Part shown: piece after piece, positions 1,642-26,162 of the stretch | Position numbering within the stretch: the stretch's first letter is position 1 | Layout: every line of letters begins with the position of its first letter | DNA from: a virus | Taxonomy: Duplodnaviria; Heunggongvirae; Uroviricota; Caudoviricetes | DNA: 26,162 nucleotides | Virus record (IMG/VR): IMGVR_UViG_3300028965_000026 | Strand: one strand, 5' to 3' | Notes under the pieces: model-generated | Databases searched by the model: none | Seen by the model: only the letters and a program-made list of their open reading frames with translations | What the model was told of the DNA's origin: nothing | Position numbers and translations under genes: made by a program

Positions 1642-2034
1642 ATGTCTGAACCCTTATCCGGTTCCGGCACGGCTGCGGCGCTCGGCGGGGCGACGGTATT
1701 CGGGCTGTTTACCGGAACGGATTTCGGGATTGTGTTTGGTGCGTTCGCCGGGGCGTTATTTGTGGCAACGATGCCGCAGGCGCTTTCAGCCTGGCGCGTG
1801 GCGGCGCATTTTCTGGTGTCGTTCATTATCGGCGTGCTGGGGGCAGAGGTTCTGGCATCCTGGCTGGTAAAGCATACAGAGTTTGACGGTGCACCTGTCG
1901 ACGCATTGTGTGCAGTACTGGTGTCAGTGGTGTCGGTGAAGATTCTCTCGTTCATCCACCAGCAGGATATCGCATCGCTGGTGTCAGGACTGTTCTCCCG
2001 CCTGCGAGGCGGAGGAGGCGGTAATGTTAAGTAA
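1642..2034 (+). CDS. Putative holin (multi-pass membrane protein, first gene of the lysis cassette)
   Basis: ATG at 1642 preceded by AGGAG at 8-nt spacing. 130-aa product with Gly/Ala-rich hydrophobic segments (GGATVFGLFTGTDFGIVFGAFAGALFVA ... FLVSFIIGVLGAEVLASWLV) and a charged C-terminal tail. Sits immediately upstream of the endolysin. The six-frame ORF from 1345 is an upstream extension with no RBS. Confidence 0.7.
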   Translation: MSEPLSGSGTAAALGGATVFGLFTGTDFGIVFGAFAGALFVATMPQALSAWRVAAHFLVSFIIGVLGAEVLASWLVKHTEFDGAPVDALCAVLVSVVSVKILSFIHQQDIASLVSGLFSRLRGGGGGNVK

Positions 2035-2299
2035 CCTTCCCGGATTGCTGAATGTGGCGTTATGCACGGTTATCGTGCTGACGCTCTTTTTTTATCGTCG
2101 CCGTGATTCCAGACATAAACCACTGGTGTCATGGCTGGCCTGGCTGCTGATGCTGCTGTATGCCTTTGCGCCCCTCAGCTATCTGTGTGGTCGCCCGTTA
2201 GCAACGGGCTGGCTGGAAGTGTTTTTTAACCTGCTGTTCTGCGTGCTGGTGATACGCGCGCGCGGGAACGTCACAAAAATCTTTCCATTGTTGAGGTGA
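2024..2299 (+). CDS. Small membrane protein of the lysis cassette (possible antiholin or second holin)
   Basis: ATG at 2024 overlaps the end of the preceding gene. 91 aa with two or three hydrophobic helices (LLNVALCTVIVLTLFFY, LAWLLMLLYAFAPL, VFFNLLFCVLVI). Translationally coupled between the holin and the endolysin. Confidence 0.6.
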   Translation: MLSNLPGLLNVALCTVIVLTLFFYRRRDSRHKPLVSWLAWLLMLLYAFAPLSYLCGRPLATGWLEVFFNLLFCVLVIRARGNVTKIFPLLR

Positions 2300-2301
2300 A
2301 T

Positions 2302-2679
2302 ATGTCGGGTAAATTCAGATTTAGTCGTCGCAGCGAAAAGAATCTGGAGGGCGTTAAACCACAGCTGGTTGCTGTCGTTCGCCGTGCGCTGGAGCTGACG
2401 GAGGTTGATTTCGGTATTACGGAAGGGCTGCGCACGAAAGAACGCCAGAAACAGCTGGTCGCGGAAGGGAAAAGCCAGACCATGAACAGCCGCCACCTGA
2501 CCGGTGATGCGGTGGATGTTGTTGCCTGGGTTGGCAGCCAGGTGTCATGGGACTGGCCTCTGTACGAGAAAATCGCACAGGCATTTAAGCAGGCTGCCGC
2601 AGAGCTGGGAACTGCCATCGAATGGGGCGGGGAGTGGAAAACTCTGAAAGACGGGCCTCACTTTCAGTTGAAACGATAA
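2302..2679 (+). CDS. Endolysin, peptidase M15 family (L-alanyl-D-glutamate endopeptidase, phage T5 type)
   Basis: Translation resembles T5-type endolysin as recalled (N-terminal FRFSRRSEKNLEGVKPQL ... RRALEL and the metal-binding SRHLTGDAVDV motif). GAGGTG RBS then ATG at 2302; the six-frame start at 2296 is GTG two codons upstream. Stop at 2677-2679. Confidence 0.85.
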   Translation: MSGKFRFSRRSEKNLEGVKPQLVAVVRRALELTEVDFGITEGLRTKERQKQLVAEGKSQTMNSRHLTGDAVDVVAWVGSQVSWDWPLYEKIAQAFKQAAAELGTAIEWGGEWKTLKDGPHFQLKR

Positions 2680-2690
2680 GCAAAACAAAA

Positions 2691-23548: not shown

Positions 23549-23741
23549 CGGCGATATGCTGGATGACATCTGCCAGAGACACTATGGCAGTACCGGGCTT
23601 AACCAGTCACTGGCGGCGGTACTGGAAGCCAATCCCGGACTGGCTGACCTTGGTCCGGTCTATCCGGCGGGAGTGGAAATCGTGTTGCCGGACTGGGTAT
23701 ATGAACCGGAAGTGAAGGAGACGTTTCAGTTATGGGACTGA
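23523..23741 (+). CDS. Tail protein X (P2 gpX-like, LysM-type fold)
   Basis: 72 aa. DGDMLDDICQRHYG ... AAVLEANPGLADLGPVYPAGVEIVLPD matches P2 X (QGDTLDAICVRYYG ... ETVLAANPGLAELGAVLPHGTAVELPD). Confidence 0.85.
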   Translation: MAKNWRTTDGDMLDDICQRHYGSTGLNQSLAAVLEANPGLADLGPVYPAGVEIVLPDWVYEPEVKETFQLWD

Positions 23742-24820
23742 ATGAATATCAGCCGGATTTCAGTCTGACAGCGGAAGGCCAGGATATCACGAAGGCAATA
23801 AAACGTGGGCTGGCTGAGCTGCGATATACCGATAATGGTGCTGGCACAAAGCGGTCCGATGAACTGATGATAACGCTGTTCAGCGAGACGCTGGCGTTGC
23901 CACCGAAAGGCGCGGTGCTAACGCTGGGACTGGGGTTCAACGGAAATCTGGTCAATAAAGGCAGTTTTACCGTCTGTCAGGTGGCAAGCGGTGGTCCTCC
24001 CCGCCGGCTCACCATTTATGCCACCGCAGCCCCCATGAATGCGTCAAAACATGGCGCAGACGTGACCGCACTGAAAACCCGGGCTTTCAGCGATATCACA
24101 CTGGGCGACCTGGTGAAAACCATCGCCACTGAAAATAATCTGGTGGCGCGCGTCTCATCGGTGCTTGCTGATATTCATATCCCGTGGGTGATGCAGTCAT
24201 CAGAATCTGATGCTGCCCTCTTATCCCGCATTGCAGGTATGTACGGCGCCACCAGTAAACCGACCAGTGGCTACTGGTTATTTCTGGAATACGGGGCATC
24301 ACAGAGTACGGGGGGCAGAAATGCGCCCGAGATAACCATTACGCCGGGTATGGTATCAGACTGGGATTATCGTGAAGGTGAGCGACAGGGCGCTGCGGGT
24401 GGTGCGAAGGGGGATAAAAAGAGCGGGAAAGTTGGGGTCCGGTATTTTGATGCTCGTGACGGACGCACACGTGAAGTTAAAGTTGACGTGGAGTCAACAG
24501 ATAAGCGGCATCCGTTTACCCAGCCTGACCAGGGCACCGCAAAACACTGTGCAGAGTCGAAGGTTAAACGTGTGCAGAAAGCCGGACGCCAGATGACGAT
24601 AACGTTGCCCTGCAGGCCGGAACTGCTGAAAGCAGGGGCGGAGATGCGTTTTGTCACGCAGGGATTTGGTGTGCGTGAGGACCATCACTGGCAGGCTGAG
24701 TCTGTGGAGTTTTCACTGGTACCGGGACAGGGATTTACGCTGAATCTGTCACTGACCACGGATATTTCTGCAAAGGGGAAAGCCAGTGGCAAGAAAAAAG
24801 GCGTCAATTATTTTGGTTAA
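23732..24820 (+). CDS. Tail protein D (P2 gpD-like)
   Basis: 362-aa ORF in the P2 gene D position after U and X; contains SGGPPRRLTIYATAA similar to P2 D (SGPPDRLTITARSA). Confidence 0.8.
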   Translation: MGLNEYQPDFSLTAEGQDITKAIKRGLAELRYTDNGAGTKRSDELMITLFSETLALPPKGAVLTLGLGFNGNLVNKGSFTVCQVASGGPPRRLTIYATAAPMNASKHGADVTALKTRAFSDITLGDLVKTIATENNLVARVSSVLADIHIPWVMQSSESDAALLSRIAGMYGATSKPTSGYWLFLEYGASQSTGGRNAPEITITPGMVSDWDYREGERQGAAGGAKGDKKSGKVGVRYFDARDGRTREVKVDVESTDKRHPFTQPDQGTAKHCAESKVKRVQKAGRQMTITLPCRPELLKAGAEMRFVTQGFGVREDHHWQAESVEFSLVPGQGFTLNLSLTTDISAKGKASGKKKGVNYFG

Positions 24821-24844
24821 TGTTTTCTGAATCAGGAAATAAAC

Positions 24845-26162
24845 ATGTCTGTATTAATTTCGGGTGTGCTGACGGATGGCACGGGACTCCCCATGTCCGG
24901 ATACCATATTATTCTGAAAGCCCGACAGAATACATCCGCAGTGGTTATGAGAACGGTGGCAACAGTTTTGACGGGGCCGGCAGGAGAATATGCATTTGAG
25001 GCTCAGACCGGAAGATATGACGTTTATCTTCGGTCATGTATTGAAAGAGAATATTGTGTTGGTGATATTTCGGTTTACGACGATTCAAAGCCCGGTACAC
25101 TGAACGACTTTCTGACCGCCCTCGATGAAGGCGATTTAAAACCGGATGTCGTTAAGCGGTTCGAAGAACTGGTGGCGCAGGCGCAGCAGAGCGCGGAGGC
25201 GGCAGCGGAAAGCGAACGACAGGCCGGGCAACATGTCGCTGATGCGCAACAAATCAAGAGCGACTGCGAGACGCTGGCGGATAACGTACAGCAGAACGCC
25301 GAGGCCGTTGCTGAAGATAAAAGGCAGGTGGCACAGCTGGCATCATCTGCCACACAGGATGCGGCTCGCGCAGAGCAGGCCGTTAAGGACGCAGACAAAA
25401 TCGTCGATAAGGCTGTTGATAAACTCGGTGAAGTCGCAACGCTGAGCGGCGAGGTAAAAGCCAGCGCCGAAGTGGCAGCAAAAAGCGAGCAGAATGCAAA
25501 AAAACACGCGGATAATGCAGCAGAAATCGCACAGCAAACCGCACAGGACGCAGAAGCCACCACAACAGCCCGTGATGATGCGGAACGTTTTGCGGGTGAG
25601 GCAGAAAACAGTGCACAGACATCAGGGGCAGCGCGGGATGAATCGGTTGATGCTGCTGAACGTGCCTGCCAGCATAAAGAAGCAGCATCTTCGGCTGCGA
25701 CCAGTGCAGAAAATGCGGCAAATAAGGCGCAGGGACATGAAAATGCCACCGCAGAATACGCCCGGCAGGCGAAGGCCAGTCAGGATGCGAGCGAAGGCAA
25801 TGCGCAGGAAGCGAAACGGTGCAGGGACGAGGCGCAGCAGATTGTTGATGACCTGAAGGGAAGTAATGCCACCACGACAGAAAAAGGCCTGGTGCAACTC
25901 TGTAGTGACACGGATAACGACAGCGAAGAACTGGCGGCCACACCAAAAGCCGTCAAAGTCGTCATGGACGAGACGAATACAAAAGCGCCGCTGGACAGCC
26001 CGGCGTTCACCGGCACGCCAACCACACCAACCCCGCCGGACGATGCGACCGGGCTGGAGATGGCGAACGCGGCGTTTGTCCGCAAACTGCTCGCTGCACT
26101 GGTTGGCTCATCACCGGAAGCCCTGGACACGCTGAACGAACTGGCAGCGGCGCTGGGTAATG
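24845..26162 (+). CDS. Side tail fibre protein (lambda Stf-like), 3' end beyond the window
   Basis: ATG at 24845; frame open to the window end (missing from the six-frame track because no stop is reached). N-terminus MSVLISGVLTDGTGLPMSGYHIILKARQNTSAVV ... VYDDSKPGTLNDFLTAL matches lambda Stf (MAVKISGVLKDGTGKPVQNCTIQLKARRNSTTVV ... VYEDSQPGTLNDFLCAM). Then an Ala/Gln/Glu-rich coiled region and the conserved fibre collar motif GLVQL...ELAATPKAVKVVMDETNTKAPLDSPAFTGTPT...PEALDTLNELAAALGN. Confidence 0.85.
   Translation, partial: MSVLISGVLTDGTGLPMSGYHIILKARQNTSAVVMRTVATVLTGPAGEYAFEAQTGRYDVYLRSCIEREYCVGDISVYDDSKPGTLNDFLTALDEGDLKPDVVKRFEELVAQAQQSAEAAAESERQAGQHVADAQQIKSDCETLADNVQQNAEAVAEDKRQVAQLASSATQDAARAEQAVKDADKIVDKAVDKLGEVATLSGEVKASAEVAAKSEQNAKKHADNAAEIAQQTAQDAEATTTARDDAERFAGEAENSAQTSGAARDESVDAAERACQHKEAASSAATSAENAANKAQGHENATAEYARQAKASQDASEGNAQEAKRCRDEAQQIVDDLKGSNATTTEKGLVQLCSDTDNDSEELAATPKAVKVVMDETNTKAPLDSPAFTGTPTTPTPPDDATGLEMANAAFVRKLLAALVGSSPEALDTLNELAAALGN

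What the first reader, a model, noticed from the sequence alone, without database searches (positions are those of the whole stretch)
1642..26162. Three-way mosaic virion gene set: lambda head and cos, P2 contractile tail, T5-type endolysin
Packaging and head genes follow lambda order and sequence (Nu1-A-W-B-C/Nu3-D-E-FI-FII) with a lambda-like cos. The tail is a P2-type contractile tail in P2 order (V-W-J-I-H-G-sheath-tube-E/E'-T-U-D), except that the X-like gene sits between U and D. The endolysin is an M15 peptidase of phage T5 type rather than a lambda or P2 lysozyme. The head-to-tail junction (two unknown proteins at 13196-14481) is where a siphovirus-type head meets a myovirus-type tail and probably encodes the adaptors that make the chimera work.
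Basis: partly seen in the sequence, partly recalled or inferred. Interest (0 to 1): 0.5.

Follow-up and report, generated by a model that had tools for sequence, protein, structure and literature searches.

The report
Lambdoid prophage with P2-like contractile tail
This is the lysis and virion-building half of an E. coli lambda-family prophage that pairs a lambda-type head with a P2-like contractile tail, a pairing already described in Wolbachia phage WO and present in several other sequenced phages, so it is real but ordinary.

Summary
Window 1642-24820 encodes two holins and an M15 endolysin, a lambda-like cos, Nu1-A-W-B-C-D-E-FI-FII (46-64% aa to lambda where BLAST aligns), then V-W-J-I-H-G-sheath-tube-E/E'-T-U-X-D (22-52% aa to P2, with the P2-type TTTTTTG frameshift site).

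The interpretation as a special three-way chimera does not hold. The whole Nu1-to-D block is collinear, including X between U and D, with Vibrio myophage Valp1, E. coli vB_EcoM-705R4 and Burkholderia vB_HM795. Wolbachia phage WO matches over the fetched stretch, and its lambda/P2 mix has been in the literature since Masui et al.

The recent recombination joint lies inside FI, near 12564. E. coli 503440 carries the same head (92.6% nt) on a lambda-type tail.

The lysis cassette is 97-98% aa identical to phage phiP27. The E-to-V junction occurs in 76 of 5,426 complete E. coli genomes. This is a new member of a known kind and of low interest.

The parts
1642..2034 (+). holin 1 (Phage_holin_8)
   Evidence: Pfam E 1.3e-22. 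97% aa to phiP27 L28.
2024..2299 (+). holin 2 (3TM holin, Phage_holin_3_7)
   Evidence: Pfam E 1.2e-21. 98% aa to phiP27 L29.
2302..2679 (+). M15C endolysin (L-alanyl-D-glutamate peptidase type)
   Evidence: Pfam Peptidase_M15_4. PDB ChiX E 5e-43 and T5 endolysin 2mxz E 8e-23. 98% aa to phiP27 L30.
4917..5094 (+). cos region: cosQ-like motif 4917-4929, undetermined cosN within about 4930-4969, I1-like site 4970-4989, and three AACCGGACATG repeats at 4996-5094 (candidate cosB R sites)
   Evidence: Alignment with lambda cos, sequence and repeat statistics. Lambda's cosN 12-mer is absent here.
5139..5648 (+). terminase small subunit Nu1; its N-terminal DNA-binding part is not lambda-like
   Evidence: Pfam Phage_Nu1 matches residues 49-150. 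46% aa to lambda Nu1 over the C-terminal 92 aa only.
5620..7536 (+). terminase large subunit gpA
   Evidence: 64% aa to lambda A. Pfam GpA_ATPase and GpA_nuclease.
7540..7749 (+). gpW head-tail adaptor
   Evidence: Pfam gpW E 4e-25. 50% aa to lambda W.
7746..9317 (+). portal protein gpB (RefSeq start corresponds to 7794)
   Evidence: Pfam Phage_portal_2 E 5e-95. 62% aa to lambda B.
9307..10923 (+). gpC/Nu3 S49 protease-scaffold, carrying four 46-aa tandem repeats
   Evidence: Pfam Peptidase_S49. 54% aa to lambda C. Repeats shown.
10962..11297 (+). gpD head decoration protein
   Evidence: Pfam HDPD E 1e-23. 54% aa to lambda D.
11367..12395 (+). gpE major capsid protein
   Evidence: Pfam Phage_cap_E E 1.4e-65. 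59% aa to lambda E.
12446..12811 (+). gpFI packaging chaperone; the recent head/tail recombination joint lies inside it at about 12564
   Evidence: Pfam Packaging_FI E 1.9e-13. Nucleotide homology to the E. coli 503440 siphovirus-type prophage ends at 12564.
12808..13215 (+). gpFII head-closure protein (Hc1)
   Evidence: Pfam Phage_attach E 3.8e-12 and PHROG 82. 32-36% aa both to lambda-type and to myovirus-type FII proteins.
   Evidence: PHROG 27 E 1.6e-28. Lambda gpZ matches the same PHROG at E 3e-69. The fold search was uninformative.
14465..15088 (+). baseplate spike gpV
   Evidence: 26% aa to P2 V at E 2e-14. PHROG baseplate assembly protein.
15122..15478 (+). baseplate wedge gpW (gp25-like)
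   Evidence: Pfam GPW_gp25. 39% aa to P2 W.
15453..16367 (+). baseplate gpJ
   Evidence: Pfam Baseplate_J. 41% aa to P2 J.
16360..16950 (+). baseplate/tail protein gpI
   Evidence: NCBIfam tail_P2_I E 5e-28. 37% aa to P2 I.
16947..18332 (+). tail fibre gpH
   Evidence: C-terminal 307 aa are 52% identical to P2 H and 76% to phiP27 L54.
18335..18880 (+). tail fibre assembly protein gpG
   Evidence: 36% aa to P2 G. 92% aa to phiP27 L55.
18935..20410 (+). tail sheath
   Evidence: Pfam Phage_sheath_1 and Phage_sheath_1C. 35-38% aa to P2 FI and 64% to Hafnia phage yong2.
20407..20925 (+). tail tube
   Evidence: Pfam Phage_tube E 4e-24.
20979..21421 (+). tail assembly chaperones E (20979-21287) and E' (-1 frameshift at T TTT TTG, 21245-21251)
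   Evidence: Pfam Phage_TAC_7. Slippery site and -1 frame ORF.
21405..23057 (+). tape measure protein (550 aa)
   Evidence: PHROG 3654 and several tape-measure PHROGs. 34-43% aa to the proteins in the same gene position in yong2, Chris1, Valp1 and 705R4.
23054..23548 (+). gpU
   Evidence: Pfam Phage_P2_GpU E 3e-27.
23523..23741 (+). gpX
   Evidence: Pfam Phage_tail_X E 1e-19. 51% aa to P2 X.
23732..24820 (+). gpD baseplate hub
   Evidence: PHROG 52 E 2e-95. 38% aa to P2 D over 204 aa. The Pfam Phage_GPD hit is below cutoff.
24845..26162 (+). second fibre gene, lambda Stf-like N-terminal part; it runs off the end of the window
   Evidence: 38% aa to lambda Stf over 402 aa. In CEA224S the gene continues and is annotated as a prophage tail fiber N-terminal domain protein.

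Best explanation
The window is the late region of a lambdoid E. coli prophage and encodes the parts of a myovirus particle.

Shown:
- a holin/holin/M15-endolysin cassette nearly identical to that of phage phiP27
- a lambda-architecture cos site with its own cosN and R-site sequences
- a lambda-type packaging and decorated head set, Nu1 through FII
- a Type 1 neck made of gpW, gpFII, a gpZ-family tail-completion protein and a tail terminator
- a P2-like baseplate, fibre, sheath, tube, chaperone (E/E' by -1 frameshift), tape measure and hub set

Inferred:
- All these genes lie on one strand with short gaps. In the 99.6% identical CEA224S prophage they sit behind an antitermination protein gene. 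They are therefore probably read as one Q-antiterminated late transcript rather than from Ogr-type P2 promoters; no ogr homologue is present.
- Heads and tails probably assemble separately and join through gpFII on the head side and the terminator hexamer on the tail side.
- The 550-aa tape measure predicts a tail of roughly 80-90 nm.

The head-plus-tail pairing is not a new chimera. The same gene order occurs in Wolbachia phage WO, Vibrio phage Valp1, Burkholderia vB_HM795 and E. coli vB_EcoM-705R4. Within E. coli this head lineage has also been exchanged recently, because strain 503440 carries it on a lambda-type non-contractile tail with the crossover inside FI.
For: - Identity to an annotated lambdoid prophage next to tRNA-Ser/hyaA in CEA224S, which has cI/Cro, O/P-like and antiterminator genes upstream.
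- Protein identities to lambda and P2, and Pfam/PHROG assignments.
- cos alignment and repeats.
- E/E' slippery site.
- gpZ-family assignment of 13196-13918.
- Terminator fold of 13915-14481.
- Collinearity with Valp1, 705R4, vB_HM795 and WO, all of which carry gpD and gpE Pfam domains.
- Valp1 is a myovirus by TEM, with a 60 nm head and a 90 nm contractile tail (PMC11054321). Its annotated tape measure gene is 1791 nt, about 596 aa.
- The lambda/P2 mix in WO and Xylella is described in PMC3235987.
- A gpW-type Type 1 neck in a myovirus is noted in PMC4362835.
- The head is shared at 92.6% nt (A to E 90-98% aa) with the 503440 prophage, which has a lambda-type FII-Z-U-V-G-T-H-M-L-K-I-J tail. 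Homology ends at window 12564.
- No P2 head, R, S, L or ogr homologue is detected by tblastn.
Against: - No virion has been seen for this prophage. Inducibility and the rest of the prophage (integrase, immunity region) lie outside the window.
- The gpZ assignment rests only on shared PHROG membership. Profile-sequence hhalign to lambda gpZ or P2 gpS found nothing, and the fold search of the model was uninformative.
- The terminator model has moderate confidence (pLDDT 74) and was built from a 9-sequence alignment.
- The cosN nick sites are not determined.
- Single-transcript expression is inferred. Terminator-like hairpins follow D, E, G and the tube gene.
Confidence: 0.85

Rival explanations
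1. One reading: a novel three-way chimera in which a siphovirus head was grafted onto a myovirus tail, made possible by two new adaptor proteins at 13196-14481.
For: Pfam and NCBIfam find nothing for either protein. BLAST finds no lambda or P2 homologue. No phage record covers more than 26% of the window at the DNA level.
Against: The same gene order, including homologues of both proteins, occurs in Valp1, 705R4, vB_HM795 and WO, and, behind a different head type, in yong2, Chris1 and VP882. One protein belongs to the gpZ family and the other has the terminator fold. The recent joint lies in FI, upstream of both. The lambda/P2 combination is already in the literature.
Confidence: 0.05
2. Two adjacent defective elements: a lambda-type head remnant lying beside an independent P2-like tailocin (R-type bacteriocin) cluster. 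No complete phage would be made.
For: The terminator's best structural match is the pyocin R2 collar. X between U and D is also the order I recall for R-type pyocin clusters; that recollection was not tested here. No virion data exist for this prophage.
Against: The FII, gpZ-like, terminator and V genes overlap or abut, and no integrase, att site or regulator lies between head and tail. All the genes called are uninterrupted ORFs. The E-to-V junction is conserved in 76 genomes. The same contiguous arrangement belongs to a plaque-forming, TEM-verified myovirus, Valp1.
Confidence: 0.08
3. An assembly or binning artefact that joins reads from a lambdoid prophage and a P2-like prophage.
For: None was found.
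Against: 38 complete E. coli chromosomes carry at least 80% of the window as one place, and 76 carry the E-to-V junction.
Confidence: 0.01

Closest known systems
Vibrio phage Vb_VaM_Valp1 (VHML-related telomere myophage, OR500391)
   Same: The order from terS to gpD is identical: terL, gpW, portal, protease, D-like, gpE capsid, FI-position gene, Hc1, Neck1, PHROG 1072 protein, V, W, J, I, fibre, sheath, tube, E/E', T, U, X, D. Protein identities are 26-51%. Electron microscopy shows a contractile tail.
   Different: Valp1 is a linear-plasmid prophage with a protelomerase and ParAB. It has an extra PAAR gene in the baseplate, different fibres and a different lysis cassette.
Wolbachia phage WO (e.g. 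WOVitA1 KX522565, WORiC)
   Same: The order is terminase gpA, gpW, lambda-family portal, gpC, gpD, gpE, one small gene in the FII position (no significant BLAST similarity), gpZ, a homologue of the terminator (31% aa), V, W, J, I. The published WORiC gene table then shows sheath, tube, T, U, X, D. The literature describes it as lambda-like packaging and head genes with P2-like tail genes.
   Different: The host is an alphaproteobacterial endosymbiont. WO carries ankyrin/eukaryotic-association cargo and a serine recombinase. Identities are much lower (24-45%), and the tail genes are sometimes separated from the head genes.
Escherichia phage vB_EcoM-705R4 and relatives (ON470624; in silico prophages from clinical E. 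coli)
   Same: Same host species, a lambdoid Q/holin context and the same order from Nu1 to D. Identities are 27-62% aa.
   Different: It is a distinct lineage with a different endolysin and fibres, and it sits next to yecA.
Hafnia phage yong2, Citrobacter phage Chris1, Vibrio phage VP882 (Hapunavirus)
   Same: yong2 and Chris1 hold the closest neck-plus-tail module: FII 31-35%, gpZ-like 42-43%, terminator 48-52%, sheath 61-64% aa, with X between U and D. VP882 has the same gene order by annotation.
   Different: Their head is an HK97-type capsid fused to a protease, not gpC/gpD/gpE. In yong2 and Chris1 the sheath-to-D block precedes W-J-I-H.
Bacteriophage lambda and phage 21-type lambdoid siphoviruses (closest: the E. 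coli 503440 prophage)
   Same: cos architecture and Nu1-A-W-B-C-D-E-FI-FII. The 503440 prophage shares 92.6% nt over window 5702-12564 and also has a related M15 lysis cassette (89% nt).
   Different: They carry the Z-U-V-G-T-H-M-L-K-I-J non-contractile tail. Lambda has a different cosN, different R sites and an R-type transglycosylase endolysin.
Bacteriophage P2 (Peduoviridae)
   Same: Both tail operons, V-W-J-I-H-G and FI-FII-E/E'-T-U-D, are present with the same frameshift heptamer.
   Different: No P2 head genes (Q, P, O, N, M, L), no R/S sequence homologues and no ogr are found. X is moved next to D. The tape measure is shorter (550 versus 815 aa).
Stx2e phage phiP27
   Same: The holin-holin-M15 endolysin cassette and its downstream small ORFs are 93-98% aa identical. 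The fibre tip and assembly protein are 76-92% identical.
   Different: By its record annotation phiP27 has a different head gene set and tail gene order, and tblastn finds no similarity in those genes.

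Membership tests
Lambda-type cos packaging and head module | Nu1 and gpA terminase, gpW, lambda-family portal, S49 protease/scaffold, gpD, gpE, FI and FII, in that order | tested here: met
   Pfam hits above cutoff for every gene. 46-64% aa to lambda, with FII at 33-34%.
Lambda-type cos packaging and head module | cos site with the cosQ, cosN, I1 and R-site layout upstream of Nu1 | tested here: inconclusive
   The cosQ-like and I1-like motifs are conserved at lambda spacing, and three 11-mer repeats are candidate R sites. 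Lambda's cosN 12-mer is absent. The nick sites are unknown without virion DNA.
Peduoviridae (P2-like phages) as a whole | P2-type head and packaging genes Q, P, O, N, M, L and the Ogr late activator | tested here: not met
   tblastn of these P2 proteins against the window gives no hit at E <= 0.01.
P2-like contractile tail module | V, W, J, I, H, G, sheath, tube, U, X and D homologues | tested here: met
   22-52% aa to P2. Pfam/NCBIfam hits to GPW_gp25, Baseplate_J, tail_P2_I, Phage_sheath_1, Phage_tube, Phage_P2_GpU and Phage_tail_X.
P2-like contractile tail module | E/E' chaperone pair made by a -1 frameshift at TTTTTTG | tested here: met
   T TTT TTG lies at 21245-21251 in the E frame, followed by an open -1 frame of about 57 codons. 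Pfam Phage_TAC_7.
P2-like contractile tail module | gpR and gpS tail-completion proteins | tested here: not met
   There is no sequence similarity, and P2 R and S fall in different PHROGs (65 and 26). Functional counterparts are present: a protein with the terminator fold and a gpZ-family Neck1 protein, in the lambda Z-then-U order.
WO/Valp1-type virion module (lambda gpD/gpE head with P2-like tail) | Collinear terL, gpW, portal, protease, D, E, FII, gpZ-like, PHROG 1072 terminator, V..I, sheath..T, U, X, D | tested here: met
   Gene tables and tblastn against Valp1, 705R4, vB_HM795 and WOVitA1. gpD and gpE Pfam domains are present in all four. For WO, only terminase to gpI was fetched; the rest of its order comes from the published WORiC table.
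WO/Valp1-type virion module (lambda gpD/gpE head with P2-like tail) | Particles with an isometric head and a contractile tail | not testable with these tools
   Seen for Valp1 by TEM. No particle data exist for this prophage.
Type 1 neck (Lopes et al. 2014) | Adaptor (gpW variant), Hc1, Ne1 and Tc1 encoded between portal and tail genes | tested here: met
   gpW (Pfam), FII = PHROG 82 Hc1, 13196-13918 = PHROG 27 Neck1, 13915-14481 = terminator fold. The gene spacing fits the gpW-type necks described in PMC4362835.
M15C L-alanyl-D-glutamate peptidase endolysins (T5 type) | Peptidase_M15_4 domain with sequence similarity to the T5 endolysin | tested here: met
   Pfam E 8e-12. PDB 2mxz (T5) E 8e-23, and ChiX 5opz E 5e-43, with SRHLTG-AVDV and DGPHFQL conserved in the printed alignment.
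Lambdoid prophage | cI/Cro-type immunity, O/P-type replication and a Q-type antiterminator upstream of the lysis and late genes | tested here: met
   These genes are annotated immediately upstream in the 99.6% identical CEA224S prophage. They lie outside the window itself.

The most novel reading that the evidence does not exclude
The window prophage and the E. coli 503440 prophage form a natural swap pair. They share essentially the same terminase, gpW, portal, protease, gpD and gpE (90-98% aa), yet one carries a contractile P2-like tail and the other a lambda-type tail. Everything downstream of FI residue ~40 differs. This would mean that gpFII, perhaps with the C-terminal half of FI, is the only head-side part that has to change to move a lambda head between tail types. 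If so, it gives a minimal rule for engineering lambda heads onto contractile tails.
Probability: 0.35. Interest if true: 0.3.

Novelty: new member of a known kind. Interest (0 to 1): 0.15.

Why it matters
It matters little as a discovery, because lambda-type heads on P2-like tails have been in the literature for about two decades and span Alpha-, Beta- and Gammaproteobacteria. Three things are useful. First, two proteins that RefSeq calls hypothetical now have a role: a gpZ-family tail-completion protein and a tail terminator. Second, this prophage lineage, found in about 1.4% of complete E. coli genomes, has no close relative among deposited phage genomes. Third, the pair of prophages with the same head on two tail types marks FI/FII as the exchange point, which could guide head-tail swapping experiments.

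Tried and rejected
- Exact or near-exact lambda cosN (GGGCGGCGACCT, up to 2 mismatches) gave only chance-level hits away from cos. cos was located by alignment instead.
- Profile-sequence hhalign of the two unknown-protein families against lambda gpZ, P2 gpR and P2 gpS found nothing, with probabilities below 1%. The profiles are shallow (Neff about 2.3).
- Two paper look-ups failed because the papers are not held: PhiHAP-1 (PMC2447096) and Vp58.5 (PMC2738265).
- A phrase search for "lambda-like head" together with "P2-like tail" found no paper.
- I expected VP882 to have a gpD/gpE head. The record shows an HK97-type fused protease-capsid instead, so Hapunavirus shares only the neck and tail with this window.
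- Klebsiella phage ST16-OXA48phi5.4 turned out to be an ordinary P2-like phage with a P2 head.
- phiP27 shares only the lysis cassette and the fibre tips.
- The Rfam scan found only the two tRNAs.

Full report
WHAT IS THERE. The window matches an annotated prophage in E. coli CEA224S at 99.6% identity. That prophage lies next to tRNA-Ser and hyaA, and cI/Cro, replication and antitermination genes sit upstream of the stretch matching the window. All the genes in the finding are on the + strand with short gaps or overlaps. In order they are:
- two holins and an M15 endolysin (1642-2679)
- small ORFs and cargo genes
- a cos region (about 4917-5094)
- Nu1, A, W, B, C, D, E, FI, FII (5139-13215)
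- two proteins without Pfam hits (13196-14481)
- V, W, J, I, H, G, sheath, tube, E/E', T, U, X, D (14465-24820)
- the start of a second fibre gene, which runs off the window

CHECK OF THE OBSERVATION. Against lambda, tblastn gives A 64%, W 50%, B 62%, C 54%, D 54%, E 59%, FII 34% and the C-terminal half of Nu1 46%. Pfam places every head gene in its lambda family.

Against P2 the values are V 26%, W 39%, J 41%, I 37%, H 52% (C-terminal part), G 36%, sheath 35%, tube 22%, U 33%, X 51% and D 38%. E and T are recognised only by profiles. The P2-type slippery heptamer T TTT TTG sits at 21245-21251 in the E frame, with an open -1 frame behind it.

The endolysin belongs to Peptidase_M15_4. It matches the solved T5 L-alanyl-D-glutamate peptidase at E 8e-23, and Serratia ChiX more closely.

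The cos region aligns with lambda cos. A cosQ-like ACGGGTCCTTTCC and an I1-like CGCTATTTATGAAAATTTTC are conserved, 40 nt apart here against 41 in lambda. Lambda's cosN 12-mer is not present. Three exact copies of AACCGGACATG, one of them inverted, lie between I1 and Nu1. No shuffle reaches the observed count. The N-terminal DNA-binding part of Nu1 is unlike lambda's. Together this points to lambda architecture with a different recognition specificity.

IS THE COMBINATION NEW? It is not. Searching deposited phages with the two unknown proteins led to several genomes with the same layout. Three carry the same gene order from terminase to gpD, with X between U and D:
- Vibrio phage Valp1
- E. 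coli vB_EcoM-705R4 and three close relatives
- Burkholderia phage vB_HM795

Wolbachia phage WOVitA1 has the same order over the fetched stretch, terminase to gpI. Protein identities to the window are 26-62% along the block. All four have Pfam gpD and gpE domains. Valp1 is a myovirus by electron microscopy, with a 60 nm head and a 90 nm contractile tail (PMC11054321).

For WO, the literature states that the packaging and head genes are lambda-like and the baseplate and tail genes P2-like. It adds that such lambda/P2 hybrids also occur in Xylella prophages. The published WORiC gene table lists the same order, including gpZ, V, W, J, I, sheath, tube, tape measure, U, X, D (PMC3235987). Lavigne et al. 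note that the HAP1-like phages share with P2 only the V and F tail operons (PMC2771037).

THE TWO UNKNOWN PROTEINS. The product of 13196-13918 matches PHROG 27 ("tail completion or Neck1") over nearly the full profile at E 1.6e-28. Lambda gpZ matches the same PHROG at E 3e-69. Its AlphaFold model found no convincing structural neighbour, and hhalign against single sequences failed. This assignment is therefore the weaker of the two.

- dozens of further tail terminators

It is a tail terminator. The neck is thus gpW, gpFII, a gpZ-like protein and a terminator, encoded in the lambda FII-Z-U order. This is the Type 1 neck that Lopes et al. found in both siphoviruses and P2/Mu-type myoviruses. 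They also recorded one myovirus with a gpW-type adaptor (PMC4362835). These proteins are ordinary parts, not special adaptors.

WHERE THE MOSAIC JOINTS ARE. The window's head is closest to lambda/21-type siphovirus prophages. E. coli 503440 shares 92.6% nt over window 5702-12564, with A to E at 90-98% aa, and it also has the M15 lysis cassette. It then continues with lambda-type FII, Z, U, V, G, T, H, M, L, K, I, J. Homology stops inside FI, after about 40 codons.

From there on, the closest relatives are Hafnia phage yong2 and Citrobacter phage Chris1: FII 31-35%, gpZ-like 42-43%, terminator 48-52%, sheath 61-64% aa. Those two phages, like VP882, have an HK97-type capsid fused to a protease. 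FII is about equally distant (32-36%) from the siphovirus and the myovirus versions.

The lysis cassette and the fibre tips are 76-98% identical to phiP27. The region is therefore mosaic in the usual lambdoid way. The head-to-tail pairing belongs to an old, recurring type, and this particular head lineage has been re-paired recently.

HOW IT PROBABLY WORKS. Terminase cuts at cos and packages DNA into a gpE/gpD head; this is inferred from homology. gpW and gpFII close the portal. The tail is built on a P2-like baseplate, with its length set by the 550-aa tape measure. At about 0.15 nm per residue (textbook value) this predicts roughly 83 nm. Valp1's annotated tape measure of about 596 aa goes with a measured 90 nm tail. 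The terminator caps the tail and docks to gpFII.

No ogr homologue is present, and an antiterminator lies upstream in CEA224S. Expression as one Q-dependent late transcript is therefore the likeliest reading. Terminator-like hairpins after D, E, G and the tube gene would then be read through. None of this was tested experimentally.

PREVALENCE AND NOVELTY. 38 of 5,426 complete E. coli genomes hold at least 80% of the window, and 76 hold the E-to-V junction. No deposited phage genome covers more than 26% of the window at the DNA level. The window is a new member of a known kind, and its interest is low.

Noticed in passing
window 931-1084 (within 573-1495): tRNA-Thr (UGU) and tRNA-Gly (UCC) genes lie between the AraC-like gene and the holins. 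They sit in a 923-bp segment that is replaced by 6 bp in the otherwise near-identical CEA224S prophage.
   Followed up: partly
window 3971-4795: A K88/F4 (FaeG-like) fimbrial subunit gene sits alone between the lysis cassette and cos (Pfam Fimbrial_K88 E 2.7e-58; PDB FaeG E 8e-5). No usher or chaperone gene was recognised among the ORFs examined around it. Its middle part (4191-4700) does not align with the CEA224S allele. Only two fragmentary phage records hold a relative.
   Followed up: partly
window 53-550 (gene starts before the window): An AraC-family regulator lies between the antiterminator and the lysis genes, the slot where Stx phages carry toxin genes. The best NCBIfam matches are YdeO and GadX, well below their cutoffs.
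   Followed up: partly
window 10290-10797: A 138-bp tandem repeat (3.7 copies, 81% matches) in gene C encodes four 46-aa repeats (PEAKGREQLAQ...GDQIMAL) in the scaffold part. This makes the protein 538 aa against 439 in lambda. The 503440 prophage has the repeat too.
   Followed up: partly
window 2812-3109: Two small genes follow the endolysin: a 37-aa protein with a C-terminal hydrophobic stretch (2812-2925) and a 51-aa protein with a lipobox, LVGC (2954-3109). They may stand in for spanins. The second is 95% identical to a phiP27 ORF.
   Followed up: no
window 24845-26162: A second fibre gene starts right after gpD and runs off the window. Its product is 38% identical to lambda Stf over 402 aa. 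In CEA224S it is 2274 nt long and is followed by a DUF4376 gene and then tRNA-Ser. The prophage therefore encodes two fibre sets, as phiP27 does.
   Followed up: partly
window 1448-1616: Three strong terminator-like hairpins with T runs lie in 170 bp just upstream of the first holin. This would fit a Q-antiterminated late leader.
   Followed up: no
window 4996-5094 and Nu1 residues 1-70: Three exact AACCGGACATG copies, together with a Nu1 N-terminus that does not align with lambda's, suggest a packaging specificity distinct from lambda. DNA similarity to the PhiR12-type coliphages begins at window 4971 and includes Nu1.
   Followed up: partly
L018 (VP882) 4678-6576; L010 (yong2) 4566-6497: The same neck-plus-tail module (Hc1, Neck1, terminator, V ... 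U, X, D) is joined in these phages to an HK97-type capsid fused to a protease. The tail module therefore pairs with at least two head types.
   Followed up: yes
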